From contig CAURNU010000003.1 in assembly GCA_963526735.1 (NCBI GenBank), forward strand, positions 62,530-126,529: a stretch of 64,000 nt of DNA. Direction: 5' to 3'. Shown here in pieces: positions 44,790 to 64,000 of this stretch (its first letter is position 1; each line of letters opens with the position of its first letter). Source of the DNA: an uncultured Candidatus Saccharibacteria bacterium. Its GTDB lineage: Bacteria > Patescibacteriota > Saccharimonadia > Saccharimonadales > Saccharimonadaceae. Made by a program: the position numbers and the translations under genes. Under the pieces are notes generated by a model. It saw nothing but the letters and a program-made list of their open reading frames with translations. It had not been told where the DNA came from and searched no databases.

Positions 44790-46247
44790 TTATCTCCTTG
44801 GGGTTGAGCGTTTATTAGCGGTAGTGCGACGACTGCTGAGGCTAGTCGAGCGGGTTGATGACTGACGTTTGGTGGTTGGCTGGGCGGTTTTATCGGTTTT
44901 GGTGGTTTTGTCGAGGCCGGCTTCACGGTTCTTGGCGATTTGTTTTTCGTCACGGAAGGAGAATTTGATCGGTGTGCCAGTAAAATCAAAATTATCGCGC
45001 ACGGTACTATCGAGATAGCGCTTGTAGCTCCAATGTAGGAACTTGAGATTAGAACCATAAACCACAAACCAAGGCGGACTATTGTCGGTTTGAACCATGT
45101 AGCGGAGTTTTGGATAAGTATTTTTGAGACCAGCCGGTGGATGTTTGAGCTTAGCTTCGGTCAGGATTTGGTTGAGTTGACGAGTTGGAATAGTCTGTTG
45201 GCGACGTTTCATAATATCAAGCGTCAGGTCGAACAGCTTGGCGACGTTTTTGCCGGTGATGCTTGAGGTAAAAATCAGTGGCGCATAAGGCGTAAATTGA
45301 AAATCATGAGTAATTCGGCGCATAATGCGGTCTTTGGTTTCTTTTTCGGGAATTAAATCGCTCTTGGAAATTGCAATAATCAGTCCCCGACCGGCTTCAT
45401 CAATAATGCCAGCTAGTTTGTGGTCGAGCTGAGTGCTGTATTCGGTGCCGTCAATCACTAACACACAAATATCGGCCTCTTCGATAGCTTGTAGGGTACG
45501 TAAAACCGAAAACTTCTCGATGCCGACTTGTTGCTTGCCAGGTTTGCGGTAACCGGCGGTGTCGATAAATTCAATCGGTTGTTGATGATAATTGATGGTA
45601 ATGCGGTTAAGGTCACGGGTAGTGCCAGCGATGTTGGCTACGACGGCCTGCTGTTTGCCAGCTAAGGTATTAAACAAGAAACTTTTGCCAACATTAGGGC
45701 GACCGATCAGGGCAACTTTAGTCTTAGTGGTGGTTGGTTGGATTTTGACTTCAGGAATGAGTGATTCGAGGTGATTAGATAATTCGGCGATGCCAGAATT
45801 GTGATTGGCGGATGTATAAAAAATATCTTTAATGCCGAGTCTGAGCCACTCTTCGCGGGCGACGCTGGAGCGCAAGTCGGTTTTGTTGACGACCAGGACG
45901 ACGGGTTTGCGGTTTTTGAGGGCGGTTTTGGCGATTTGGCGGTCGTCTTGAGTTGGAAATAGCGTGCTATCGACTACGACCATAATTACGTCAGCGAGTT
46001 CGACAGCTTCAGCGATTTGGTCTTGGATGCTAGCTTCGAACTCATCAGCTGGATCTTTGAGGCCGGCGGTGTCGACTAACCAGCTAGTTTTTTGCCCAAA
46101 TTTAACCTGCGCCAAGACGTTGTCTCGGGTGGTGCCGGCTTCTTTAGCGACGATAGCTTGCCGACTACCGACCAGTCGATTGAATAGCGAGCTTTTGCCA
46201 ACATTGGCTTGGCCGATAATAGCGATATTAGGTAATGATTTTTTCAT
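44790..46247 (-). CDS. der: Ribosome-biogenesis GTPase Der (EngA)
   Basis: Two tandem GTPase domains (IIGQANVGKSSLFN and LIGRPNVGKSFLFN, each with DTAG and NK.D), a KH-like domain, and a basic C-terminal tail. Confidence 0.95.
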   Translation of the reverse strand: MKKSLPNIAIIGQANVGKSSLFNRLVGSRQAIVAKEAGTTRDNVLAQVKFGQKTSWLVDTAGLKDPADEFEASIQDQIAEAVELADVIMVVVDSTLFPTQDDRQIAKTALKNRKPVVLVVNKTDLRSSVAREEWLRLGIKDIFYTSANHNSGIAELSNHLESLIPEVKIQPTTTKTKVALIGRPNVGKSFLFNTLAGKQQAVVANIAGTTRDLNRITINYHQQPIEFIDTAGYRKPGKQQVGIEKFSVLRTLQAIEEADICVLVIDGTEYSTQLDHKLAGIIDEAGRGLIIAISKSDLIPEKETKDRIMRRITHDFQFTPYAPLIFTSSITGKNVAKLFDLTLDIMKRRQQTIPTRQLNQILTEAKLKHPPAGLKNTYPKLRYMVQTDNSPPWFVVYGSNLKFLHWSYKRYLDSTVRDNFDFTGTPIKFSFRDEKQIAKNREAGLDKTTKTDKTAQPTTKRQSSTRSTSLSSRRTTANKRSTPRR

Positions 46248-46392
46248 AGATTAACTCTTGCATATTATAACATATGCAAGCATAACCTCAAAACTGTGTT
46301 TTGATTGAAGTTAGCTTGTTAAAGAATAGGGGTTTTGGTTTGTAACCGCAACTGTCTTGATGCTTAAATTGTATCAAACATGAGCATATTTG

Positions 46393-47313
46393 TCAAGATT
46401 CTTTTTTAACTAGCTCATCAAACACTCCATTCTTATATTTATCCCAGACCTCTGTCAAAATCCCATCCAATCCATGCAAATACCTGTCCGTCACGGCAGG
46501 GTTTGAGTGGCGCATCAACTTCTGAATCTCATCAATTCCAGCTCCGTGCTTCTGTAAATCAGTCGCAAAGCTATGTCGCAATTCATGAAATTGGAAATTC
46601 GGGTAGCCAGCTTTCTCAAATTCTCTCTTGACGATTCTCACGATCCTAGCAGATGCTATCTTAAGAGAGTCACATTCTTTGAATAAGGTTTTTTGACATT
46701 TCTTTTTAATAGCATATTGCTGGATGAAATTAGCTGTGGTCTCAGAGATATATACAAACCCCAGTTTGCGACCCTTGCCAATAGTTTTGATTACTCGACC
46801 ACAAATATCTTCAATCTGAATGTTAGCCACCTCAGCTATTCGGAGTCCGGTTTCAAATGCAATCATTATCGCGATTTTTGCTTCAATGCTTTGACATTGT
46901 TTGACGACATCGAGAATTTGTTTTCGATTATAAAATTTTCGTCGCACTGGCTCGCTAGCTGTTAGCGCTACATAAGGGAATCTAATTTTAGTTCCGATTT
47001 GTGTTCCGTCAAGCCACCTCAAAAATGCCATGATTTGAATTTTGGTTGATATTAAGCCATTCGGACTCAGCTTCTTGTAGCCCTTTAATTCACTTGTTAA
47101 TCGTAGCCTTGTCCAATCATTGATTACGTTCTCATCAATTTCTCTAAAGTCATCAATCTCCATATGATAAATAAATAATTCTATCGTGGATTTTTTACAT
47201 TTAATAGAACATTCTGTCATATTTCTTACATCCTTGCACCAATCAAGGTACTCAGCCAATTGTTGCTCTGCCGGTGTCATTACGGCTACGTTGTTATTTT
47301 TCATTCCTTTCAT
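46393..47313 (-). CDS. Xer-like tyrosine recombinase (prophage integrase and/or invertase)
   Basis: TGLRIAEV (Arg I), HELRHSFAT (H-x-x-R), MRHSNPAVTDRYLH (His and the catalytic Tyr). An N-terminal SAM-like domain is present but no arm-binding domain. ATG 47313 follows GGAAGGAG. Confidence 0.85.
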   Translation of the reverse strand: MKGMKNNNVAVMTPAEQQLAEYLDWCKDVRNMTECSIKCKKSTIELFIYHMEIDDFREIDENVINDWTRLRLTSELKGYKKLSPNGLISTKIQIMAFLRWLDGTQIGTKIRFPYVALTASEPVRRKFYNRKQILDVVKQCQSIEAKIAIMIAFETGLRIAEVANIQIEDICGRVIKTIGKGRKLGFVYISETTANFIQQYAIKKKCQKTLFKECDSLKIASARIVRIVKREFEKAGYPNFQFHELRHSFATDLQKHGAGIDEIQKLMRHSNPAVTDRYLHGLDGILTEVWDKYKNGVFDELVKKES

Positions 47314-47592
47314 GTAGTCTCCTTCCGCTCTATATAGATTCATTACATAGATTTTAATTTTATTAAAATATCTATACAGAACCATTTTTAGTATTTTTAA
47401 ATATTAAAAAGTCATTTTGAGGCACGCAATGTCGTTTTTTGGATGCAATTGCGAGCGGTTAATTTGTATTTTAATAACATTTATTTTTTAATATTTTACA
47501 AATAAGCATTTTTATTATTTTGTATTTTGCTATGAGCGCAGAAAATCCCGATCAAGCTAATGCTTATCGGTTGTTTCTATTACAATCTTAAT

Positions 47593-48006
47593 TTAAGTTA
47601 ACTTATTAAACCTCTCTTTCCCCATGATTTGGTCTTTCATCGTTTGATAGCGTTTACCTTTTGCGGTCTGAACAAAGCTCATCCACTCCAGCCGTTCAGC
47701 TTTTTTCTTGGCTGCCGCAACAGCCTCACGCGCCTTTGCCTTAAGTTGGTTGATCATTTTGCGCATAATTGCTAAAGTTGTTTCGATCTTTGACTTACTC
47801 CATATCTTTGAAAAAAATCGCTTCGGATCCTTCTTTGTTTTAGCAATCTTCACTGAAAGTGCAAATTCTTCCTCGTAATTCTTTTGTCGATTACGGAACA
47901 TTGGTAAATAATTTACATTATCGATTAATTCCATGGCGTCGCCTAGTAACTTACTCATGATTTTAATTCGGCGTTGCCAAAAAACATCAACTTGTTCAGT
48001 TTGCAT
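47593..48006 (-). CDS. Hypothetical prophage protein
   Basis: A 137-aa basic helical protein. No HTH recognised. Confidence 0.45.
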   Translation of the reverse strand: MQTEQVDVFWQRRIKIMSKLLGDAMELIDNVNYLPMFRNRQKNYEEEFALSVKIAKTKKDPKRFFSKIWSKSKIETTLAIMRKMINQLKAKAREAVAAAKKKAERLEWMSFVQTAKGKRYQTMKDQIMGKERFNKLT

Positions 48007-48204
48007 CTATTTTCCATATCTTTCCCTGTGAGTTTATTTAATTAATATTCTGGAGCAAAACAAAAAAGCCCCAATTAAGTGGTTGTCTAGGCCACTTAAA
48101 TGAGACTTTAGTGCTGTTTCAAATTGTAATGTTGTAATTATAGCAAATCGCTTGAGTTTTGTCAATTCTCGCCTTGCCAGACTATAGGCGATTACGATTA
48201 AAGC

Positions 48205-48549
48205 ATGAAAACTATCTTAAATCGCATCGCTGTCTGGTTGCCCAAACCAATTGACGAGTTAACAGTTAATATTACACCAGCTGGTCTTATTTACTATAAG
48301 GATGATATTGTGAAGACTTCTGATCGTATAACATATCGTTACGCTAAAAACTTCTCAGTTGAAAAAGACCAAAGCTTACTTAAGTTTTGCTTATTCTTCA
48401 CAACTTTTTCCGACGATAAGGAAGCTGCTGAATTCACACTCAATCTAATCGCTAGCACACTAACCTATGATTATGTCAGCAATTTTCTAACGAATAATAT
48501 CGCCGGTGAATTTAAATACTTAAAACACTACTTTACGGAGGATAAATAA
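48205..48549 (+). CDS. Hypothetical prophage protein, co-transcribed with the tail-fibre-like gene
   Basis: Its stop overlaps the start of the next gene (TAATG). Confidence 0.45.
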   Translation: MKTILNRIAVWLPKPIDELTVNITPAGLIYYKDDIVKTSDRITYRYAKNFSVEKDQSLLKFCLFFTTFSDDKEAAEFTLNLIASTLTYDYVSNFLTNNIAGEFKYLKHYFTEDK

Positions 48550-49073
48550 TGCCATTGCCAAATCCCAACTTAGAGTTTGTGCCACTCGATAAGCTCACAG
48601 CTGCTCAACTTAATCAGCTTGTCGCTAATATCATCGCCCTCGCTGACGGCACTGGACTTAACAACAAAAGCGTTAGTGCTAGTAAATTAGCAGATAATAT
48701 TATGAAGCCAGCTTCTATTTATAAATTTGATGATTTCGCCTATAATTCAGCTGAGTTCGGCGATGCTCCAGGAGGAGTTGGCCCATCAGTTGAAATCGAC
48801 GTACCGACATCAGGAGCAGTTTTAGTGTTAATCTCTTGTGGTAGCTATGGTAGTGGCAATGCTAAAATGGTTGGATTTGCTGCTACTGGGGCGAACTCGA
48901 TCAATCCAGACCAAAATGTTGCAACGCGCAATGACGGTGCAACCGCCGTGATTACTTCGTGTCATGAGTTGTTAACTGGATTAAATCCTGGAAAAACAAC
49001 CTTTACACTAAAATACCGTGGATTAAACGCTCGGTTCTTCTCTCGAAAAATAACCGTAATACCACTAATTTAG
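48549..49073 (+). CDS. Tail fibre / receptor-binding protein-like (constant N-terminus plus variable C-terminus, current orientation)
   Basis: The N-terminus PLPNPNLEFVPLDKLTAAQLNQLVANI resembles the conserved tail-fibre N-terminal motif (..L.A..LN....N). The C-terminus is beta-rich. The left inverted repeat lies in codons 45-52. Confidence 0.55.
   Translation: MPLPNPNLEFVPLDKLTAAQLNQLVANIIALADGTGLNNKSVSASKLADNIMKPASIYKFDDFAYNSAEFGDAPGGVGPSVEIDVPTSGAVLVLISCGSYGSGNAKMVGFAATGANSINPDQNVATRNDGATAVITSCHELLTGLNPGKTTFTLKYRGLNARFFSRKITVIPLI
48682..48703 (+). repeat. Left inverted repeat of the invertible segment
   Basis: GTAAATTAGCAGATAATATTAT. Its exact reverse complement is at 49402-49423. Confidence 0.9.
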
Positions 49074-49445
49074 TTAAACTGCTTTGAATACAATACCACT
49101 CAATGACACGAAACCAGTGCTTGGGTTGTAGGCCGATGACACTTGAACTGACCCATTTGGTAGAACGTCGACACGGCCGACCGTACCTCCATTAGGAGCT
49201 GCGAAAATAACGTTGCCAGCTGGTCGATAGCCCTCTGGTAATGTGAAAATCGGTCGTTCAGTAGCGTTGCTAGCGCTGTTCGCTGCAAGTCCAACAAGAT
49301 AGACATTACCAAATATATCTTTAGCGTATTGACACTTATGGTACACTCCACCATAGTTACGAAAACCATTTTCAAAAGTAACGTCTTTCCATTCCAATTT
49401 AATAATATTATCTGCTAATTTACGAGCATAATCGCTTAAATTATC
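49074..49445 (-). CDS. Promoterless, start-less alternative tail-fibre C-terminal cassette
   Basis: The frame is open from 49445 and reads DNLSDYARKLADNIIKLEWKDVTFENGFRNYGG...TLPEGYRP. It has no ATG; the track start is TTG 49397. The C-terminal pattern is typical of tail-fibre tip domains. Confidence 0.55.
   Translation of the reverse strand, partial: DNLSDYARKLADNIIKLEWKDVTFENGFRNYGGVYHKCQYAKDIFGNVYLVGLAANSASNATERPIFTLPEGYRPAGNVIFAAPNGGTVGRVDVLPNGSVQVSSAYNPSTGFVSLSGIVFKAV
49402..49423 (-). repeat. Right inverted repeat of the invertible segment
   Basis: ATAATATTATCTGCTAATTTAC on the + strand, which is the reverse complement of 48682-48703. Confidence 0.9.
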
Positions 49446-49781
49446 CTATTCATGCCACACCACCTCAAATTATAATGAAAAAGTAGTTGGCAAAGTATAG
49501 GTTTTTTGCTAGACTATTGGCGCGAAAAAAACAAAAGTAATTTTCGTGAAATAATTGAAAGGGCGACATTGTTTACTTAAATTTGCCCGGTGAAGCGTAA
49601 TGCTAAATCAACAAGTCGTTACGATAACTTCGCCGGGCTGGCCAGGGTAAATAAAATAGACCTCATCTTACAACTTGATGACGTCTATTATAGCGAACCT
49701 CATTTTAGAGCTTAATGATGTTCGCGCTCGTGGCAATTAGCCTGATAATCTAATTATACAGGTTTTTTAGAATATCTCAAT

Positions 49782-51074
49782 TTAGTAGCTCACCTTTTCA
49801 ATATCTTTAGTATTCATTGCTGCCCACACCTGTCCTCGAGCCGACAATACTGCTCGTTCACCAGTTACTTCAGTGATAGTGTAAGTTGCGTCATATTGTG
49901 CTAAATTAGATCCATAATAATCAATTAGTCTAATCGGCTTAACTACATCACCCACACTAAGTTGAGTTGGCTGTAGTGCTGGCTGGTTGTTAATTAATAT
50001 CTCACCAACCTTACGCTGAACTACTTCATAATCATACCCAGCTTCAGTCAGTCTGCGTTTTCGTTCGTCGCCATTTCCCCAATTACCACGGATAACCTGC
50101 CGAGCTATTTCATCAACTGATAATGTTGGAGCTGGTGCTGGAGCAGGAGCTGACTTTGGAGCTTCTGGTGCAACCATTCCAGCTGGTTTGCAATAAGTTG
50201 CTCCAACGGCTTCCAGATTAAGGTAATGAGTTGAAACTCTTAACGGTGTCCAGTTAGCATCATTGACGATATTTTTATCTGGATCAACTACTGCACCAGT
50301 ATGACCGAACTGGCCACTGTCATAGCCGAAAATCGCACCAGCTTCCTTGCCACACCTGACGAATCCAAACTTATTGACCAAATAATCAACCATTTGATTT
50401 CCATTGACTGGTCCGTAATCTGGATGCGGTGCATGGTTCATTCGAATACCAGTCGCCAAGTAGTAAGCATATTTAGAACATTGCCAGCCTTTACCGCCAT
50501 CATTATCTCCATCAGCTAAACGGCGTGATAATGGATTAATGCTTGCGCCTCGACCACTGATAACTTCCTCAACTTGTTTTTTCTCTGGTTCGGCTTGTTT
50601 GTCGGTTTGATGATCGTTAGTTGTCCATTTTGGAGTAATAGCATCAATAATTGCTTGAGTCACACTACCAGCTTGTTTAGTGAGGTTATCATAATCAGCT
50701 TTAGTTGCATCAACCTCGACTTTAGTATTTTTCAGATTAACAAAATTCTTAATATTATTAAAAGCGTTTGTCAAATACCAAACGCAACCACCAATGATTG
50801 CTGCCGTTAGTGCTGGTAGAGACATCTCGCCCAAGGCACTCAAATTAGCACCAACTAAATTGCCATACCATTCAACCAGTTTCATAATGATTACAAAACC
50901 AACAATGCCGATTGACATCACCACTGCTTTCATCAGGTCTTGAAACATTTTCTTCCATGACCATTTTAAGTCTGGTGTGAACAATACTTTTGCTACACCA
51001 ATAATTAAGTCGATGAGATAAGCTCCTCCCAAAATCCCAACGCCAATTGCTGCTGTTATGATTTGATTTAACAT
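49782..51074 (-). CDS. Membrane-anchored endolysin: N-terminal multi-TM (holin-like) region, CHAP, CW_7-like and C-terminal binding domain
   Basis: About 4 TM helices in residues 1-115. CHAP Cys (GWQCSKYAYY) and His (FGHTGAVV), an Ala/Pro linker, and a CW_7-like motif (IARQVIRGNWGNGDERKRRLTEAGYDYEVVQRKV). Confidence 0.75.
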   Translation of the reverse strand: MLNQIITAAIGVGILGGAYLIDLIIGVAKVLFTPDLKWSWKKMFQDLMKAVVMSIGIVGFVIIMKLVEWYGNLVGANLSALGEMSLPALTAAIIGGCVWYLTNAFNNIKNFVNLKNTKVEVDATKADYDNLTKQAGSVTQAIIDAITPKWTTNDHQTDKQAEPEKKQVEEVISGRGASINPLSRRLADGDNDGGKGWQCSKYAYYLATGIRMNHAPHPDYGPVNGNQMVDYLVNKFGFVRCGKEAGAIFGYDSGQFGHTGAVVDPDKNIVNDANWTPLRVSTHYLNLEAVGATYCKPAGMVAPEAPKSAPAPAPAPTLSVDEIARQVIRGNWGNGDERKRRLTEAGYDYEVVQRKVGEILINNQPALQPTQLSVGDVVKPIRLIDYYGSNLAQYDATYTITEVTGERAVLSARGQVWAAMNTKDIEKVSY

Positions 51075-51090
51075 AATAACTCCTTTTGAT

Positions 51091-51372
51091 TTATTTCATA
51101 CCGCCTCGAAAGACGAAAGCTATAATTCCACTGATGATTGAAGTAATTACTGCTAAAGTGATCTTAGCTTGGCTTTGTTCGCCTTTTTCAACCCGGTCAC
51201 TTAAATTTTCTATAGTGACGCTCATGGCTGCTATCTCTTTTCCGAAGTCAGTTAACAGATCTAACTTATTGTTAGTTTTGTCTTGTGCCTCCTTAACACT
51301 TTGAAGCATTGCTCGTAGCTCGGCTACTTCACTTGCTAGTGTTACGTTGCGACATTTACTATTGTTAGTCAT
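51091..51372 (-). CDS. XhlA-like lysis accessory protein
   Basis: A 93-aa protein with an N-terminal coiled coil and one C-terminal TM (LAVITSIISGIIAFVF), immediately upstream of the lysin. Confidence 0.55.
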   Translation of the reverse strand: MTNNSKCRNVTLASEVAELRAMLQSVKEAQDKTNNKLDLLTDFGKEIAAMSVTIENLSDRVEKGEQSQAKITLAVITSIISGIIAFVFRGGMK

Positions 51373-51405
51373 ACTTTAATCATGAGCGCTAGTAGTCTGG
51401 CGAGG

Positions 51406-59661: not shown

Positions 59662-61443
59662 CTATTGAGCTTTCTTAATAGCTACTGCTGATTTGATTTG
59701 TGCTAAACCACCACCAGCGTAGATTTCTTGTAGGTACTCGACTTTGTTAGCCTGCAATGCAAAGTTTTGGAATTGCTCGACAGTTTCGTCACCGACCATT
59801 TCATACGCTTCGCCGACATACAGCACTACGTCGATCTCGTCATCTTTCATCCAACTTGGAGTGATGATTTCTTTAATTTCGTACGCTTCAGCCATATTTG
59901 AGCCCAGCGATAACACCAAATTACCACCAGTTGTCTCATTGAGTCGCAATTCGGCTTTCTTCTTGCGGCTCATGACTGCGTAGATATCGCCTTCCATCTC
60001 AATCTCTGCCACAGCGTTAACCATTGACACGTACAATTTTTCACCAGTTTTTGGCTCGTATAGGCTTGCAAATGGCTTTGCATTATCTTTAGCATCGGCT
60101 TTGATTGAGATAAAGCTTTTGATCACTTCATCGCCTGTACGACCATCACCAAGAATAATCGCTCGTTCGACCTCAGTAATGATGCGTTTAGTCAAGGTGC
60201 TGACGACATATTTGACTAAGGCGCCAGTATCCTGATTTTCGCGAATATCTTCTTTGTTAATCGGCAAGTATGCGTAGATATATTGACCACGTAACACACG
60301 ATCAAGCAAGGTGATGTCAATTTCGGTCTTGTTCGTACCTTTTTTGTGACCGCGAGCCCGACCACCATCAGCTCCTGCGACAGTATCAGCACTAATGCGA
60401 CGTACAGTTAAGCCGGTTTTGTTAATCGAATTCCAAATTCGACTATTCTTGTTTAAGCCGTCAGTGATAGCTGTAACTAATGCTCCAGGCAATAACACGT
60501 CTGGATTGGTAATACCTTTGCTTTTAACGACTTCTGACCACGCTTTCTGTACTTCTGCCGCAGTTTTGCCAGCGTTATCAATCAAGACGTTAGCGAAGTC
60601 AACTAGCGCTTGTTTAGTCTTAAGATAGCCATTAGTTGCTACTTGTTTTATCTGATTTGGTACAGCTTTTTGAATATTTTCAGCTGCAATTTGGTTTTCA
60701 ACTGTTCCCATTGCTTCTCCTTCTTGGGTAATTGAGCTTTCGCCCTCGTTAATGTTAGATTCGGGTTGGTTATTTGTCGCCTCACCTGCTGGCGCATTTT
60801 CTAGTGGAGTTTCAGATTGTTCATTCTGAACTTGGTTATTCTGAACTTCCTCCTGACTCTCCGCTGCACTACCGAAGCTATCGGTTGATGCTGATTTATC
60901 TTTGTTCATATTTTCTCCTTTCAGAGACTTAACTGCGAGTAATCTCGCTTCTTTATTGCTACCGCGAAACACTAAACTTACCTCAATAATTTCAGCATTT
61001 GAGATAGTTTCAGTTTCGAAGTTATAGTCATAATCGGCCATTGTGATGCTGAAAGCGTTGGATAAATGACCTTCCTCGAGTAACACTAACATTTCCTGCG
61101 CAATTTCGCGCTTTGAAATGCCACACTCGAAGATTAACTCACCGTTTTCATAATAAGCGCTTCTGACCGAGCCAATGACATCACGCACATCAAGTGAATG
61201 ATTGAGCATCAGCGGAATATCAACGATTTCTGATACCCCTTCGGCTGGGATTGTGCCTACAATGATTTCGCCACCAGCTTTCAATGGTAACCGCAAGCTA
61301 TCAACTCGCACTTCCTCGTTATGACGATCTTTATTAATACTCGTAGCAACAAATCTGATGCGGCGCTCCCCATTGTCGCCAGTATCGATAGTCGAAACCT
61401 TGGACTTAATGGACAGCACTGCTTTCTTGATTTCTTTCGCCAT
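59662..61443 (-). CDS. Prohead protease (S78/HK97-type) fused to HK97-fold major capsid protein
   Basis: The N-terminal protease pattern is RFVATSINKDRHNEEV...LNHS...EVSLVFRGSN. An acidic Q/E/N-rich linker is followed by a capsid-like region of about 330 aa. ATG 61443 is preferred over TTG 61479. Confidence 0.7.
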   Translation of the reverse strand: MAKEIKKAVLSIKSKVSTIDTGDNGERRIRFVATSINKDRHNEEVRVDSLRLPLKAGGEIIVGTIPAEGVSEIVDIPLMLNHSLDVRDVIGSVRSAYYENGELIFECGISKREIAQEMLVLLEEGHLSNAFSITMADYDYNFETETISNAEIIEVSLVFRGSNKEARLLAVKSLKGENMNKDKSASTDSFGSAAESQEEVQNNQVQNEQSETPLENAPAGEATNNQPESNINEGESSITQEGEAMGTVENQIAAENIQKAVPNQIKQVATNGYLKTKQALVDFANVLIDNAGKTAAEVQKAWSEVVKSKGITNPDVLLPGALVTAITDGLNKNSRIWNSINKTGLTVRRISADTVAGADGGRARGHKKGTNKTEIDITLLDRVLRGQYIYAYLPINKEDIRENQDTGALVKYVVSTLTKRIITEVERAIILGDGRTGDEVIKSFISIKADAKDNAKPFASLYEPKTGEKLYVSMVNAVAEIEMEGDIYAVMSRKKKAELRLNETTGGNLVLSLGSNMAEAYEIKEIITPSWMKDDEIDVVLYVGEAYEMVGDETVEQFQNFALQANKVEYLQEIYAGGGLAQIKSAVAIKKAQ

Positions 61444-61539
61444 AGTCTCAATATAATTGCCTGTAGTCTGGCAACACAAAAAATATCGCCACCGTTACCG
61501 ATAGCGATATTATGTAGTTAGTTAAGATTAATATTAATA

Positions 61540-62259: not shown

Positions 62260-64000
62260 TCATTTGTCAAGCTTAATCAGCTCAAACAACCCCCTCTCGT
62301 CAACTACCCACAATTGATTAACCTGATTATTCGGGTTACGCTTATTATATTCTCGTATTTGATGCAAGAATTTATCTTTCAACTGATATTCAGAATGGAT
62401 AATGAAATTCTTTTTACCTTGTTTGACTGCGTCGCGTATATATTTAGCTACGGTCTTATATTTCGGATTACCGACTTCTAGAGCTTTTAGCTCAATCTCG
62501 TTCCCCTGGTCATGCCAGATGAAGTCATTAGTTGGTTTAGCTTTCACTCCAGTAACTGGGTCACCTTCATCTTTCGGAATACGCTCAATTGTTTGCCCAA
62601 GGCGTACAAAATCAGCGATAAATTTCTGCTCATTGGGATCAATCCTATCATATTTCGATTCGCTTGGTATAAATTTACCAGGTTGCTTAACATTACTATA
62701 GCTAAGTATCGGTCTAAACTTTTCCTTCGGCGGTATCTTCTCGACAATAAAACGTTCTTTGCAACTACAATTTGGATGCAGGCTAGCAGTATCAATATCC
62801 ATGTAGTTATTGACAAACAGCTCTTCGTCTTGCTTGCTTTTACTAATTGCCGCTCCGGCTTTGAGATAACTTTGTGTGACATTAACGCGCTTACCGTTCA
62901 TTTTTTGGCACCACGGGCAAGGTTCGTCGCTCACCGTGTACCACTCTTTAGTAATCCGGACTTTAGCGCTATTTTGCACTTGCACCATGGCATCAACCCC
63001 AGCAATACCTCGCGCTCGATGTACCTCAGTTCGAGCAAACCGTTGGATACGCCAGCGGTCGGTATTGACGATTTGACGCATCGTCTCTTTGAGCATCTCT
63101 TTATCCCAATCGTTTTGTCGAGCCAACTCCACCAGCTTTTTGATTGAGGCGTCAGTGCCTAGATTAAAGTCTTTAAGCGATTTGACAGCGTGTTTCTGGT
63201 ATTGATTTTGTAATTTGTTGCTGATAACGTAACCAGTTAATTGATCGGTGTTTTGCAAGCCCAACAACAATCCAATTCCAATATTATATTGCTCAATACC
63301 GCCCTTAAGCAGTATTTCCATTAAAATTTGCTCAAGCTGGTCGCTCAATGTTTTGGAAGATTTTTTAGAGCTTTTTTGTTTAGACAGCGCTAGATCAACA
63401 CGCTCAAGAATAGCTTGTTCTAAGACTCTTTCAATTTTTTGTTCTTCAATACTGTTAGTGCTTTTTATTTTTGGATCAGCTTTTAAACAATGCCCGCCTT
63501 TAGCGGATGACACTTTCTGATTTTTATGACAATCAGGACAATTGCATAATCTAATCGGCTGAGCGAAGTTCTTCAACTTATTAGTATCAGGCGCAGCTTC
63601 AACTTCGCCGCCGTCATCAACTTCAGGCTTGTTATTGTTAATTACTGGTTTGTAATCACCAATTTTGAGTAATTTATAACTATTACTTAAGTTCAGTGCG
63701 TCAACTGCGCTATCAAGTGAATAACCAGCGTCTATCAGCTTGATAATCATATCGACTTCAATACTTTTCGTTTCAGCAGTTAGCTTCTCTTCTTCAGCCA
63801 CACCTGGAATAGCCAGCTCGAAGGTGATCGCGTAACCCAGACCTCCCGTGATACGATTTAACTCATGAGTGAAGCGTGTCCAGATTTTCAACGCCAGCGG
63901 TTTGATAGTGTATTTGATAAATATCTGCTCATCAACTCGCACGCTAGCATAGGTATTGTTATCATTGACGCCTCGAATACTAGCTGGCACGCCATAGACC
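62260..64000 (-). CDS. Portal C-terminal part fused to a MuF/SPP1-gp7 head-morphogenesis domain, with a 166-aa C-terminal extension (5' end outside window)
   Basis: The frame is open to the window edge. MuF motifs are RFARTEVHRARG, SDEPCPWCQKMNGK and LHPNCSC. The extension contains a PD-(D/E)xK-like PTNDF...EIELK. Confidence 0.7.
   Translation of the reverse strand, partial: VYGVPASIRGVNDNNTYASVRVDEQIFIKYTIKPLALKIWTRFTHELNRITGGLGYAITFELAIPGVAEEEKLTAETKSIEVDMIIKLIDAGYSLDSAVDALNLSNSYKLLKIGDYKPVINNNKPEVDDGGEVEAAPDTNKLKNFAQPIRLCNCPDCHKNQKVSSAKGGHCLKADPKIKSTNSIEEQKIERVLEQAILERVDLALSKQKSSKKSSKTLSDQLEQILMEILLKGGIEQYNIGIGLLLGLQNTDQLTGYVISNKLQNQYQKHAVKSLKDFNLGTDASIKKLVELARQNDWDKEMLKETMRQIVNTDRWRIQRFARTEVHRARGIAGVDAMVQVQNSAKVRITKEWYTVSDEPCPWCQKMNGKRVNVTQSYLKAGAAISKSKQDEELFVNNYMDIDTASLHPNCSCKERFIVEKIPPKEKFRPILSYSNVKQPGKFIPSESKYDRIDPNEQKFIADFVRLGQTIERIPKDEGDPVTGVKAKPTNDFIWHDQGNEIELKALEVGNPKYKTVAKYIRDAVKQGKKNFIIHSEYQLKDKFLHQIREYNKRNPNNQVNQLWVVDERGLFELIKLDK

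What the first reader, a model, noticed from the sequence alone, without database searches (positions are those of the whole stretch)
48549..49445. In-frame invertible segment that would swap the C-terminus of a prophage tail-fibre-like protein, with no serine invertase in sight
- **Repeats.** A 22-bp perfect inverted repeat, GTAAATTAGCAGATAATATTAT, lies at 48682-48703, with its reverse complement at 49402-49423. It extends to 26 bp with one mismatch.
- **Left copy.** It lies inside codons 45-52 (SKLADNIM) of the 174-aa tail-fibre-like ORF.
- **Right copy.** It lies in frame upstream of the convergent ORF. That frame is open back to 49445 and reads ..ARKLADNIIKLEWKDV.., but it has no ATG and no promoter.
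- **Geometry.** The two coding segments abut tail to tail at 49073/49074.
- **Predicted outcome.** Inverting 48682-49423 would fuse the constant N-terminus (aa 1-51) to an unrelated C-terminal domain of about 109 aa that has a tail-fibre-tip pattern (..NGFRNYGG..TLPEGYRP..).
- **Comparison.** This is the logic of the Mu G, P1 C and shufflon host-range switches.
- **What is unusual.** The only recombinase within reach is an Xer-like tyrosine recombinase 1.3 kb away (46393-47313). The inner end of each repeat carries the palindrome ATAATATTAT. The host appears to be a CPR-type bacterium.
Basis: seen in the sequence. Interest (0 to 1): 0.85.

Follow-up and report, generated by a model that had tools for sequence, protein, structure and literature searches.

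The report
Invertible receptor-binding head switch in prophage
A prophage carries two alternative receptor-binding tips for one small tail protein, arranged tail to tail between in-frame inverted repeats so that flipping the DNA swaps the tip; this is a known kind of phage host-range switch, here with no dedicated invertase gene in view.

Summary
A perfect 22-nt inverted repeat (48682-48703 / 49402-49423) is the longest in the window; the maximum in 60 shuffles was 15 nt. Both arms are in the same codon phase. Inverting the segment in silico turns the 174-aa protein into a 160-aa protein with the same 51-aa N-terminus and a different head.

- Other phage lineages have the same architecture with unrelated perfect repeats of 20, 23 and 26 nt; L145 has a 16-nt exact core.
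- L004 and L014 carry the same two cassettes in opposite states, with breakpoints exactly at the arms.
- Silent B cassettes are under purifying selection (dN/dS 0.06-0.14).
- The B head model matches the receptor-binding proteins of Listeria phage PSA and lactococcal phages TP901-1 and p2.

No serine invertase or second recombinase was found in the window or in about 9 kb of early genes of relatives. The only recombinase is an armless Xer-like tyrosine recombinase at the prophage edge.

Limits:
- The enzyme is not identified. Candidates are the integrase, a recombinase acting in trans, or RecT/RecA.
- Flipping was not observed in this phage.
- The host taxon could not be checked.

The closest precedent is the Bifidobacterium prophage inversion systems (Mavrich et al. 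2018). Verdict: a new variant of a known kind.

The parts
48549..49073 (+). Receptor-binding protein gene in its assembled state (174 aa): constant N-terminus plus head A
   Evidence: ORF. The C-terminal part matches phrog_7565, a minor tail protein, at its extreme C-end. Homologues P0013, P0014 and P0038. The model shows an N-terminal helix, a low-confidence linker and a beta-sandwich head.
48549..48703 (+). Constant N-terminal module (aa 1-51), kept in both states; it ends in the left repeat arm
   Evidence: The same or a near-identical N-terminus is joined to heads A, C and D in P0008, P0010 and P0011. The 95% identity to L009 ends at 48697, inside the arm.
48682..48703 (+). Left arm of the perfect 22-nt inverted repeat (crossover site), codons 45-52
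49402..49423 (-). Right arm of the perfect 22-nt inverted repeat, in the same codon phase, heading the silent cassette
48704..49073 (+). Head A (currently expressed variable C-terminal domain, 123 codons including the stop)
   Evidence: 89% nucleotide identity to the head of L001. dN/dS is 0.02-0.05. The Foldseek result was weak and jelly-roll-like, so inconclusive.
49074..49401 (-). Head B (silent cassette, 108 codons plus stop), convergent with head A and abutting it
   Evidence: Matches phrog_3285, a minor tail protein, at its C-end. About 91% nucleotide identity to the silent cassettes of L005-L007 (L008 was not compared) and 88% to that of L013. Expressed as the head of P0004 in L004. dN/dS is 0.06-0.14. 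The model has pLDDT 79; its best PDB match is Listeria phage PSA RBP gp15 (query TM-score 0.71), followed by TP901-1 and p2 RBP heads.
49424..49445 (-). Non-coding stub outside the right arm (..DNLSDYAR), closed by an in-frame stop at 49446-49448. It is a decayed remnant of N-terminal coding sequence.
   Evidence: The stub resembles those of L145 and L009 (KQNDYDNKLAD).
48205..48549 (+). 114-aa gene immediately upstream of the RBP gene, sharing one base with its start codon at 48549; a conserved partner, function unknown
   Evidence: It precedes the RBP gene in the window, L001, L005, L009, L013 and L145. No family hit.
48176..48203 (+). Leader element upstream of the 114-aa gene, repeated upstream of the holin gene (51374-51401, minus strand)
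   Evidence: (I2) and 67: 2 copies, 0 expected. It suggests the module is its own late transcription unit (inference).
46393..47385 (-). Xer-like tyrosine recombinase with no arm-binding domain, at the prophage edge next to the host der gene. It is presumably the integrase, and it is the only recombinase in view.
   Evidence: PF00589 at 5e-27. phrog_1 integrase. XerA/XerC/XerD models align over residues 43-317 of 330, all below their cutoffs. It holds the same position in L009-L012.
47593..48006 (-). 137-aa conserved small protein between the recombinase and the module; function unknown
   Evidence: Present in the window, L001, L005, L009 and L013. No family hit.
49446..49781 (.). 336-nt non-coding gap between the silent cassette and the lysin gene
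   Evidence: A promoter-like site lies on the minus strand at 49780-49753. No Rfam family.

Best explanation
This is a two-cassette DNA-inversion switch for the head domain of a small siphovirus receptor-binding protein (RBP) of the TP901-1 / PSA type.

How it is built:
- The gene at 48549 encodes a constant 51-aa N-terminus, which presumably docks the protein to the tail tip.
- Two alternative head cassettes follow. A is on the plus strand. B is on the minus strand and has no start codon. They lie tail to tail between 22-nt inverted repeats embedded in frame in the linker.

How it works:
- Recombination between the arms inverts 48682-49423. This replaces head A by head B (174 aa becomes 160 aa) and parks A behind the dead stub.
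- The expected result is two phage subpopulations with different receptor specificity.

Shown:
- The repeat and the shared codon phase of its two arms.
- Both heads are tail-tip domains.
- The same architecture occurs in other lineages with different repeat sequences.
- A real inversion between the arms in a sister lineage.
- Purifying selection on the silent cassettes.

Inferred:
- That this particular phage still flips.
- That the two heads bind different receptors.
- The enzyme. My first choice is the prophage's only recombinase, the armless Xer-like tyrosine recombinase at 46393-47385, acting on simple sites. I put this at about 0.4; see the rival explanations.
For: Repeat and frame:
- The repeat is perfect, unique and far above chance.
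- Both arms are in the same codon phase, and in-silico inversion gives an intact 160-aa ORF.
- P0004 in L004 is a natural protein with a homologous N-terminus fused to a B-type head. It covers 96% of the predicted fusion at 65% identity.

Inversion in a sister lineage:
- L004 and L014 share the N-terminus and the B and X cassettes in opposite states.
- blastn shows collinear flanks and an inverted 793-nt core at 89% identity. The breakpoints lie at the 26-nt and 23-nt perfect arms.
- These are separate samples, and both are contigs from the Logan collection. My recollection, which no tool checked, is that Logan assembles with 31-mers; if so, the arms are too short to cause a mis-orientation.

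Same architecture with lineage-specific repeats at the same protein position:
- Window and L144: KLADNI class.
- L005-L007: 20 of 20 nt, AIKPEH class. L008 carries the same silent-cassette protein, but its 984-nt contig is too short to hold both arms.
- L013: 19 of 20 nt, with the same A-to-G change in both arms.
- L004 and L014: NSIQLSKI class.
- L145: 16-nt exact core with an open silent E cassette.
- Control: 0 of 80 unrelated phages that carry a B-like domain have such a repeat.

Selection and fold:
- Silent B cassettes have dN/dS 0.06-0.14 at dS 0.29-0.65.
- The B head model matches solved RBPs: PSA gp15, TP901-1 ORF49 and p2.
- Both heads match the C-ends of PHROG minor tail protein families.

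Recombinases:
- Only PF00589 is found, at 46393-47385. No PF00239 or other recombinase occurs among the window's phage ORFs, the host part of the window, or 31 early-region ORFs of relatives L100 and L101.
- The recombinase aligns end to end with armless Xer proteins.
- It is only 30% identical between two lineages that also have different repeats.
- Precedent: armless tyrosine invertase Rin swaps RBP C-termini in Bifidobacterium prophages (PMC6109161).
Against: - No flipped isoform of the window's own phage was found. The window and L144 are in the same state. The 22-mer gave only chance hits in the metagenome and genome collections and none in IMG/VR. No database protein is the window N-terminus fused to B.
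- Some relatives have lost or degraded the system: L001-L003 have no cassette, L009-L012 keep only a stub and outer arm, L015 has a decayed repeat, and L014's B cassette has a frameshift. Frozen copies therefore exist.
- For the enzyme: the recombinase sits where any prophage integrase would sit.
- The repeat shows no similarity to the att-side region.
- The sites share no motif between lineages, and they show no general dyad symmetry.
- The prophage runs off the window's end, so a distant invertase cannot be excluded.
Confidence: 0.75

Rival explanations
1. The same switch, but strand exchange is driven by homology and needs no site-specific recombinase. Host RecA or a phage RecT/exonuclease system would occasionally recombine the short identical arms, and selection would keep the arms identical.
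For: - The repeat sequences are unrelated between lineages, with no shared motif and no general dyad symmetry.
- Arm lengths of 20-26 nt are close to the minimal length known for efficient homologous recombination in E. coli (my own knowledge, not tested here).
- The arms in the window and in L145 have imperfect extensions (39 nt at 87%; 58 nt at 74%), like decaying homology.
- L005 and L013 show the same substitution in both arms, as gene conversion would give.
- Relatives encode RecT, a PD-(D/E)XK nuclease, SSB and RusA.
- No dedicated invertase was found.
Against: - Identity between the arms ends abruptly on both sides in most lineages. Yet the non-coding outer flank of the silent arm could keep longer homology at no cost.
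- Recombination at 20-26 nt would be very rare.
- Concerted change in both arms is also expected if that position lies in the overlap region of a tyrosine-recombinase site.
Confidence: 0.3
2. The same switch, but catalysed in trans by a recombinase that is not in view. It could be an invertase in the unseen part of the prophage beyond 64000, or one encoded by the host.
For: - The prophage runs off the window's end.
- Only about 9 kb of early genes could be inspected, and only in relatives whose portal is 75-76% identical.
- There is a precedent for a phage structural-gene inversion with no flanking recombinase, where an invertase in trans was proposed (PMC6109161).
- In L004 and L014 the module lies between tail and holin genes, with no recombinase within the contig.
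Against: - No serine or extra tyrosine recombinase was found in 46 kb of host sequence, 18 kb of prophage, or the early regions of L100 and L101.
- A host enzyme would have to recognise three or four unrelated sites in different lineages.
Confidence: 0.2
3. A frozen relic. The repeat and silent cassette are left over from an ancestral switch, or from mosaic recombination at a conserved linker motif. This phage no longer flips.
For: - Both known copies of this class, the window and L144, are in the same state.
- No flipped junction exists in the public collections.
- Relatives show every stage of decay.
- The left arm is also a mosaic breakpoint between the window and L009.
- The repeats lie in a linker motif that recurs in tail-fibre proteins.
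Against: - The arms are still perfect over 22 nt, although the window and L144 differ at 10% of positions.
- The silent B cassette has dN/dS 0.06-0.07 against relatives at dS 0.4-0.5. That is not expected for a cassette that is never translated.
Confidence: 0.15
4. A chance repeat or an assembly artefact.
For: None found. The only weak point is that L144's contig ends inside the right arm.
Against: - The maximum in shuffles is 15 nt against the observed 22 nt.
- The same locus is assembled independently in L144 at 90% identity.
- The architecture recurs in at least 8 independent contigs from different samples and assemblers.
Confidence: 0.02

Closest known systems
Rin shufflon of Bifidobacterium prophages (Mavrich et al. 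2018, Sci Rep, PMC6109161)
   Same: - Temperate siphovirus-type prophage.
- The variable part is the C-terminal head of a TP901-1-like RBP, fused to a constant N-terminal part.
- Crossover sites lie at the constant/variable junction.
- The recombinase family is tyrosine, of the armless XerD-like type.
   Different: - Rin has a dedicated invertase gene flanking the cassettes, in addition to a separate lambda-type integrase. Here only one recombinase is seen, and it sits at the prophage edge.
- Rin has several tandem cassettes and an 11-bp rix site (TTCCCTAACCC). Here there are two cassettes and 20-26-nt in-frame repeats.
- The rix motif is absent from the window.
- No sequence comparison with Rin or its cassettes was possible.
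Second, simple inversion in tRNA-Met-integrated Bifidobacterium prophages (same paper)
   Same: [quoted passage not shown]
- Two related prophages differ by its inversion at a short repeat.
- No recombinase flanks the locus.
   Different: - The site there is 8 bp, and the genes have no assigned function.
- Here the repeats are 20-26 nt, both heads are identified as RBP heads, and selection on the silent copy was measured.
- Homology between the two systems was not tested.
Gin/G segment of Mu, Cin/C of P1, Pin/e14, Min/p15B (serine invertase host-range switches)
   Same: The logic is identical: a constant N-terminal part of the tail fibre, alternative C-terminal parts in opposite orientation, and inverted repeats at the junction. 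Flipping changes host range.
   Different: - Those systems use a serine invertase encoded next to the segment, 26-bp gix-type sites and a Fis-dependent enhancer (my own knowledge).
- Each variable part there comes with its own chaperone or assembly gene (U/U').
- No PF00239 protein was found here.
- Here the heads are about 110-120 aa with no accompanying gene.
R64 shufflon (Rci) and inverting type I hsdS loci (tyrosine recombinases acting on in-frame repeats)
   Same: Tyrosine-recombinase systems in which inverted repeats inside coding sequence exchange the C-terminal or target-recognition domain of one protein. In hsdS systems the repeats are also lineage-specific stretches of coding sequence (my own knowledge).
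   Different: - They are not phage RBPs.
- Rci has a conserved 19-bp sfx arm; my remembered sfx core is absent here.
- They have dedicated recombinases.
TP901-1 ORF49, p2 ORF18 and Listeria PSA gp15 receptor-binding proteins
   Same: Small RBPs of about 160-260 aa with an N-terminal docking part, a neck and a beta-sandwich head. The B head model matches them: query TM-score 0.71 to 6r5w and 0.48-0.56 to TP901-1 and p2.
   Different: - Sequence identity is only 12-17%.
- Those genes are not invertible.
- Head A gave no confident match.

Membership tests
Serine-invertase tail-fibre switches (Gin/Cin/Pin/Min) | A serine recombinase (resolvase/invertase, PF00239) encoded next to the invertible segment | tested here: not met
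   No PF00239 hit in the neighbours, the remaining phage ORFs of the window, the host part, or 31 early ORFs of relatives L100 and L101. Caveat: the prophage continues beyond 64000.
Serine-invertase tail-fibre switches (Gin/Cin/Pin/Min) | Inverted repeats at the constant/variable junction of a tail-fibre gene, with alternative C-termini in opposite orientation | tested here: met
Serine-invertase tail-fibre switches (Gin/Cin/Pin/Min) | 26-bp gix/hix-type sites with a 2-bp crossover, and a Fis-bound enhancer | not tested
The arms here differ between lineages.
Rin shufflon (tyrosine invertase, Bifidobacterium prophages) | A dedicated armless tyrosine recombinase flanking the cassettes and distinct from the prophage integrase | tested here: inconclusive
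   An armless Xer-like recombinase lies 1.3 kb away. It occupies the integrase position at the prophage/host junction in the window and in L009-L012. No second integrase was seen.
Rin shufflon (tyrosine invertase, Bifidobacterium prophages) | The 11-bp rix site TTCCCTAACCC upstream of each variable cassette | tested here: not met
   0 matches with up to 1 mismatch in the window.
Rin shufflon (tyrosine invertase, Bifidobacterium prophages) | Several (3 or more) variable cassettes | tested here: not met
   The window has two heads and two sites. L004 has a truncated third cassette with a half-decayed site.
Rin shufflon (tyrosine invertase, Bifidobacterium prophages) | The variable parts are heads of a TP901-1-like RBP joined to a constant N-terminal part | tested here: met
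   Foldseek of the B head model. A constant N-terminus is shared by heads A, C and D.
R64-type shufflon (Rci) | An sfx site with a conserved 19-bp arm, and an Rci recombinase | tested here: not met
   My remembered sfx core GTGCCAATCCGGT is absent with up to 2 mismatches. The pattern is from memory, so this is a weak test. The recombinase was not compared with Rci.
TP901-1 / p2 / PSA-type siphovirus receptor-binding protein | A C-terminal beta-sandwich head domain of the RBP fold | tested here: met
   Head B: pLDDT 79; 6r5w at E 2e-4, probability 1.0, query TM-score 0.71; TP901-1 and p2 heads follow. Head A: inconclusive (pLDDT 60, weak jelly-roll matches).
TP901-1 / p2 / PSA-type siphovirus receptor-binding protein | A homotrimer docked to the baseplate through the N-terminal part | not testable with these tools
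   Only a monomer was modelled. The N-terminal helix (residues 18-32) has low confidence.
Diversity-generating retroelement (alternative way to vary a phage RBP) | A reverse transcriptase with template and variable repeats | tested here: not met
   No reverse-transcriptase family among the Pfam or PHROG hits of the phage ORFs. The repeats here are inverted and flank whole domains.

The most novel reading that the evidence does not exclude
The prophage's single armless Xer-like integrase does double duty. It integrates the phage, and it also inverts the RBP head segment at simple sites written into the coding sequence. The sites would then co-evolve with the integrase from lineage to lineage. 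The repeat sequences are unrelated between lineages, and the integrases are 30% identical.
Probability: 0.3. Interest if true: 0.75.

Novelty: new variant of a known kind. Interest (0 to 1): 0.6.

Why it matters
Phage host-range switching by DNA inversion is a textbook mechanism. Nearly all characterised cases use serine invertases in phages of enterobacteria. The only tyrosine-type case I found, Rin, is a prediction made in Bifidobacterium prophages.

This locus adds a compact, well-delimited example with several useful properties:
- It sits in a TP901-1/PSA-type RBP.
- It has natural evidence for both states.
- The silent cassette is under measurable selection.
- The crossover sites are lineage-specific.
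- No dedicated invertase is present.

It therefore gives a direct way to ask whether a simple armless integrase, or recombination at homology of only about 22 nt, is enough to run a programmed switch. The constructs would be small: 742 bp plus one gene.

If the hosts are oral Saccharibacteria, it would also point to two alternative surface receptors in organisms for which phage-host biology is almost unknown.

Practically, such segments cause mis-annotation. The silent cassette is called as an orphan ORF in the databases (P0001-P0003, P0005, P0007).

Tried and rejected
1. **Flipped isoform of the window phage.** An exact 22-mer scan gave 0 hits in IMG/VR, 3 in metagenome contigs and 1 in genome contigs. 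All four share only 22-24 nt with the window and are chance matches. No database protein joins the window N-terminus to head B.
2. **Integrase site resemblance.** The repeat against the att-side region 46240-46400 scored 7.0, and 81% of null windows did as well or better. An 8-6-8 dyad at 46258-46279 looked like an att core, but it is not conserved in L009 and does not relate to the repeat.
3. **A lox/FRT-like core.** The N-terminal arm of L004 is a 14-6-14 near-palindrome (12 of 13 in the test, p about 0.005), and L014 scores 10 of 13. Their silent arms and all arms of the other lineages are at background. I rejected this as a general feature.
4. **The palindrome ATAATATTAT.** The dyad test found no above-background symmetry at either of the window's arms, so I found no evidence that it matters.
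5. **Close relatives in IMG/VR and INPHARED.** There are none for the module: the best B-like domain is 42% identical and megablast gave no hit. Those 80 loci served as a negative control.
6. **Assembly artefact as the cause of the module's odd strand.** Rejected, because L009-L012 from four samples have the same orientation.
8. **Rfam.** Only a spurious miRNA match far below threshold.
9. **Literature.** Six searches found no description of this system. They did yield the Bifidobacterium precedent.
Full report
**1. The observation**

- GTAAATTAGCAGATAATATTAT lies at 48682-48703, and its exact reverse complement lies at 49402-49423. The repeat tool extends the pair to 39 nt at 87%.
- It is the longest exact inverted repeat with arms up to 1.5 kb apart anywhere in the 64-kb window. 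Sixty Markov shuffles never exceeded 15 nt.
- No further copy exists with up to three mismatches.
- The left arm begins at the second base of codon 45 of the 174-aa ORF 48549-49073. The right arm, read on the minus strand, has the same phase and opens into ..ARKLADNIIKLEWKDV...
- The frame is closed by a stop at 49446-49448 and has no ATG.
- The two coding segments abut at 49073/49074.
- Inverting 48682-49423 in silico yields an intact 160-aa ORF with the same first 51 residues.

**2. The surroundings**

- Host housekeeping genes run to the der GTPase gene (44790-46247).
- From 46393 onward the window holds a siphovirus-type prophage. In order, it has:
  - a tyrosine recombinase (46393-47385, minus strand);
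  - a 137-aa gene;
  - the module studied here;
  - a CHAP/CW_7 lysin (49782-51074);
  - a holin-like gene;
  - tail genes, the tape measure gene and head genes;
  - a portal gene that runs off the window's end.
- The module consists of a 114-aa gene (48205-48549), the RBP gene and the silent cassette.
- The module is on the plus strand, while all other phage genes are on the minus strand.
- This is not an assembly error. Four independent contigs of the same prophage lineage at the same insertion site (L009-L012) have the same orientation.
- The leader of the 114-aa gene is repeated upstream of the holin gene. I take this to mean the module is its own late transcription unit (inference).

**3. 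What the two segments encode**

- Head A matches the last 100 positions of phrog_7565. Head B matches the last 100 positions of phrog_3285. Both are minor tail protein families.
- An AlphaFold model of B (pLDDT 79) finds the receptor-binding protein gp15 of Listeria phage PSA as its best solved match (probability 1.0, query TM-score 0.71). The RBP heads of lactococcal phages TP901-1 and p2 follow.
- The protein is therefore a small TP901-1/PSA-type RBP. The repeat lies in its poorly ordered linker, between an N-terminal helix and the head.
- The model of the A-bearing protein is weak (pLDDT 60). It gives only non-significant jelly-roll or carbohydrate-binding-like matches.

**4. Relatives**

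Protein searches with the real ORF and with the predicted fusion found a small modular family. Their contigs were fetched.

| Locus or loci | Expressed head | Silent head | Repeat | Junction motif |
|---|---|---|---|---|
| Window | A | B | 22 of 22 nt, arms 698 nt apart | KLADNI |
| L144 (another sample, 90% identical) | A | B | same class; contig ends inside the right arm | KLADNI |
| L005-L007 | X | B | perfect 20 nt, GTGCGATTAAACCAGAACAT, arms 749 nt apart | AIKPEH |
| L013 | X | B | 19 of 20 nt, arms 758 nt apart | AIKPEH |
| L004 | B | X | perfect 26 nt, arms 743 nt apart | NSIQLSKI |
| L014 | X | B (frameshifted) | perfect 23 nt, arms 742 nt apart | NSIQLSKI |
| L145 | D | E (open frame) | 16-nt exact core within 58 nt at 74% | KLADKSVE |
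| L009-L012 | C | none (deleted) | stub and outer arm only, 16 of 17 nt | KLAD |
| L015 | C (302-aa fibre) | B | decayed, about 20 of 26 | VKPEH |
| L001-L003 | A | none | none | - |

Further points:
- L008 carries the same silent-cassette protein as L005-L007 (P0002), but its 984-nt contig is too short to hold both arms.
- L013 has the same synonymous A-to-G change in both arms relative to L005.
- In every case both arms are in the same codon phase, and identity stops abruptly at the arm ends.
- As a control, none of 80 unrelated IMG/VR phages with a B-like domain has a repeat at the head of that domain.

**5. Evidence that inversion really happens**

- L004 and L014 have almost the same N-terminus and the same two cassettes, but in opposite states. 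L004 encodes N-terminus plus B with X silent. L014 encodes N-terminus plus X with B silent.
- At the DNA level, L004 5440-6135 and 6879-7005 are collinear with L014. L004 6112-6904 is inverted at 89% identity. The breakpoints are therefore the arms.
- They come from different samples, and both are contigs from the Logan collection. My recollection, which no tool checked, is that Logan assembles with 31-mers; if so, the arms are too short to cause a mis-orientation.
- The B cassettes that are silent in the window, L005, L013 and L144 differ mostly at synonymous sites: dN/dS 0.06-0.14 at dS 0.29-0.65. This is similar to expressed head A, at 0.02-0.05. A cassette that was never translated would not be conserved this way.

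**6. What is not shown**

- The window's own phage was not caught in the flipped state. The window and L144 are in the same state.
- The 22-mer has no true hit elsewhere.
- Reads were not available.
- Decayed versions in relatives show that the switch can be lost.

**7. The enzyme**

What was found:
- The only recombinase is the PF00589 protein at 46393-47385. It aligns end to end with XerA/XerC/XerD models, below their cutoffs, which leaves no room for an arm-binding domain.
- No other phage ORF of the window has a recombinase domain, and neither does the host part.
- The 31 ORFs upstream of the portal gene in relatives L100 and L101 also have none. They instead encode RecT, a PD-(D/E)XK nuclease, SSB and RusA.

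For the integrase as invertase:
- It is the only candidate in view.
- It is of the simple armless type, like the Rin invertase.
- It is only 30% identical between two lineages whose repeats also differ.

Against:
- Its position is the normal place for an integrase.
- The repeat does not resemble the att-side region.
- The sites share no motif and no general dyad symmetry.

My estimates are about 0.4 for the phage tyrosine recombinase, 0.3 for homology-driven exchange (RecA or RecT), and 0.2 for a recombinase outside the sequence in view.

**8. Comparison with known systems**

- The logic is that of Mu G/Gin, P1 C/Cin and p15B Min. The defining serine invertase is absent from everything I could inspect.
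- The nearest described systems are in Bifidobacterium prophages (PMC6109161).
  - The Rin shufflon has a dedicated armless tyrosine invertase, 11-bp rix sites, and several TP901-1-like RBP C-terminal cassettes.
  - A second system is a simple inversion of about 500 bp that swaps the 3' end of a structural gene, with no recombinase flanking the locus.
- The present locus works like these. It is not a member of Rin by the tests I could run: the rix motif is absent, there are two cassettes, and no separate invertase was found.
- It also resembles inverting hsdS loci and the R64 shufflon, in that the sites are written into coding sequence.

**9. Side observations on evolution**

- The 95% identity between the window and L009 ends at 48697, inside the left arm. 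It resumes at 51372, the holin start codon. In between, the window has head A, cassette B and a CHAP/CW_7 lysis cassette. L009 has head C and an Amidase_2 lysis cassette.
- The window's lysin and holin are 91-92% identical to those of the L001 and L005 lineage. The repeat arm is therefore also a boundary for module exchange between phages.
- L004 keeps a truncated third E-type cassette, with a half-site and a homologous stub, upstream of its 179-aa gene.
- Recombination between that site and the N-terminal site would flip the adaptor gene together with the N-terminus. This might explain why the module's orientation relative to the late genes differs between lineages. This is inference only.

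**10. Verdict**

It needs qualification on how unusual the system is, on the palindrome and on the host.
- It is a new variant of a known kind of system, of moderate to good interest. The unidentified strand-exchange mechanism is the part worth an experiment.

Noticed in passing
window 48176-48203 (+) and 51374-51401 (-): A 28-nt leader element, GCCAGACTA...GCG.T.A.GATTAAAG, lies directly upstream of the start codons of both the 114-aa gene and the holin gene. There are 2 copies where 0 are expected. It may be a shared late-gene regulatory or translation signal.
   Followed up: partly
window 48697 and 51372, compared with L009 6149 and 8566: Mosaic boundaries. The window and L009-L011 are 95-97% identical on both sides but unrelated in between. 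The window has head A, cassette B and a CHAP/CW_7 lysin with its holin. L009 has head C, an 86-aa gene and an Amidase_2 lysin with another holin. One breakpoint lies inside the repeat arm and the other at the holin start codon.
   Followed up: partly
L004 5160-5451: A third, truncated E-type head cassette on the minus strand. It has a half-decayed copy of the crossover site (14 nt exact) and a stub homologous to the one at the main silent arm. It lies upstream of the 179-aa gene and looks like a remnant of a multi-cassette, shufflon-like arrangement.
   Followed up: partly
L004 6102-6135: The N-terminal arm is a 34-nt near-palindrome, GATTTTAGATAATT-CTATAC-AATTATCGAAAATC (14-6-14, one mismatch), reminiscent of lox/FRT sites. 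This is significant only for this arm and its L014 counterpart, not for the silent arms or for other lineages.
   Followed up: yes
window 46258-46279: A perfect 8-6-8 dyad, TTGCATAT-TATAAC-ATATGCAA, lies between the host der gene and the recombinase gene. It is a possible att core or a terminator. Its left half is mutated in L009.
   Followed up: partly
window 48165-48137 (-): A perfect sigma-70 consensus promoter match (TTGACA, 17-nt spacer, TG, TATAAT) pointing towards the 137-aa gene and the recombinase gene. No comparable match was found on the plus strand for the 114-aa/RBP operon.
   Followed up: no
L005 4285-5192: The tyrosine recombinase of this relative is split into two ORFs of 192 and 102 aa, while its 20-nt repeat is still perfect. 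All sampled copies of this lineage (L005-L008, L013) are in the same state.
   Followed up: no
L100 and L101, upstream of the portal gene: The early regions of related phages encode RecT, a PD-(D/E)XK nuclease, SSB, RusA and an FtsK-like ATPase fused to a PD-(D/E)XK domain. There is no recombinase of the serine or tyrosine families.
   Followed up: partly
window 59662-61479 and 62260-64000: Two unusual fusions. A 605-aa protein matches both head maturation protease and major head protein families. The portal protein (866 aa in full, P0039) carries a Mu F-like domain.
   Followed up: no
L001 9660-11634: Just beyond the recombinase of this relative lies a restriction-modification pair: an N6/N4 methyltransferase with a RAMA domain, and a HinfI-like endonuclease. 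It is unclear whether they belong to the phage or to the host.
   Followed up: no
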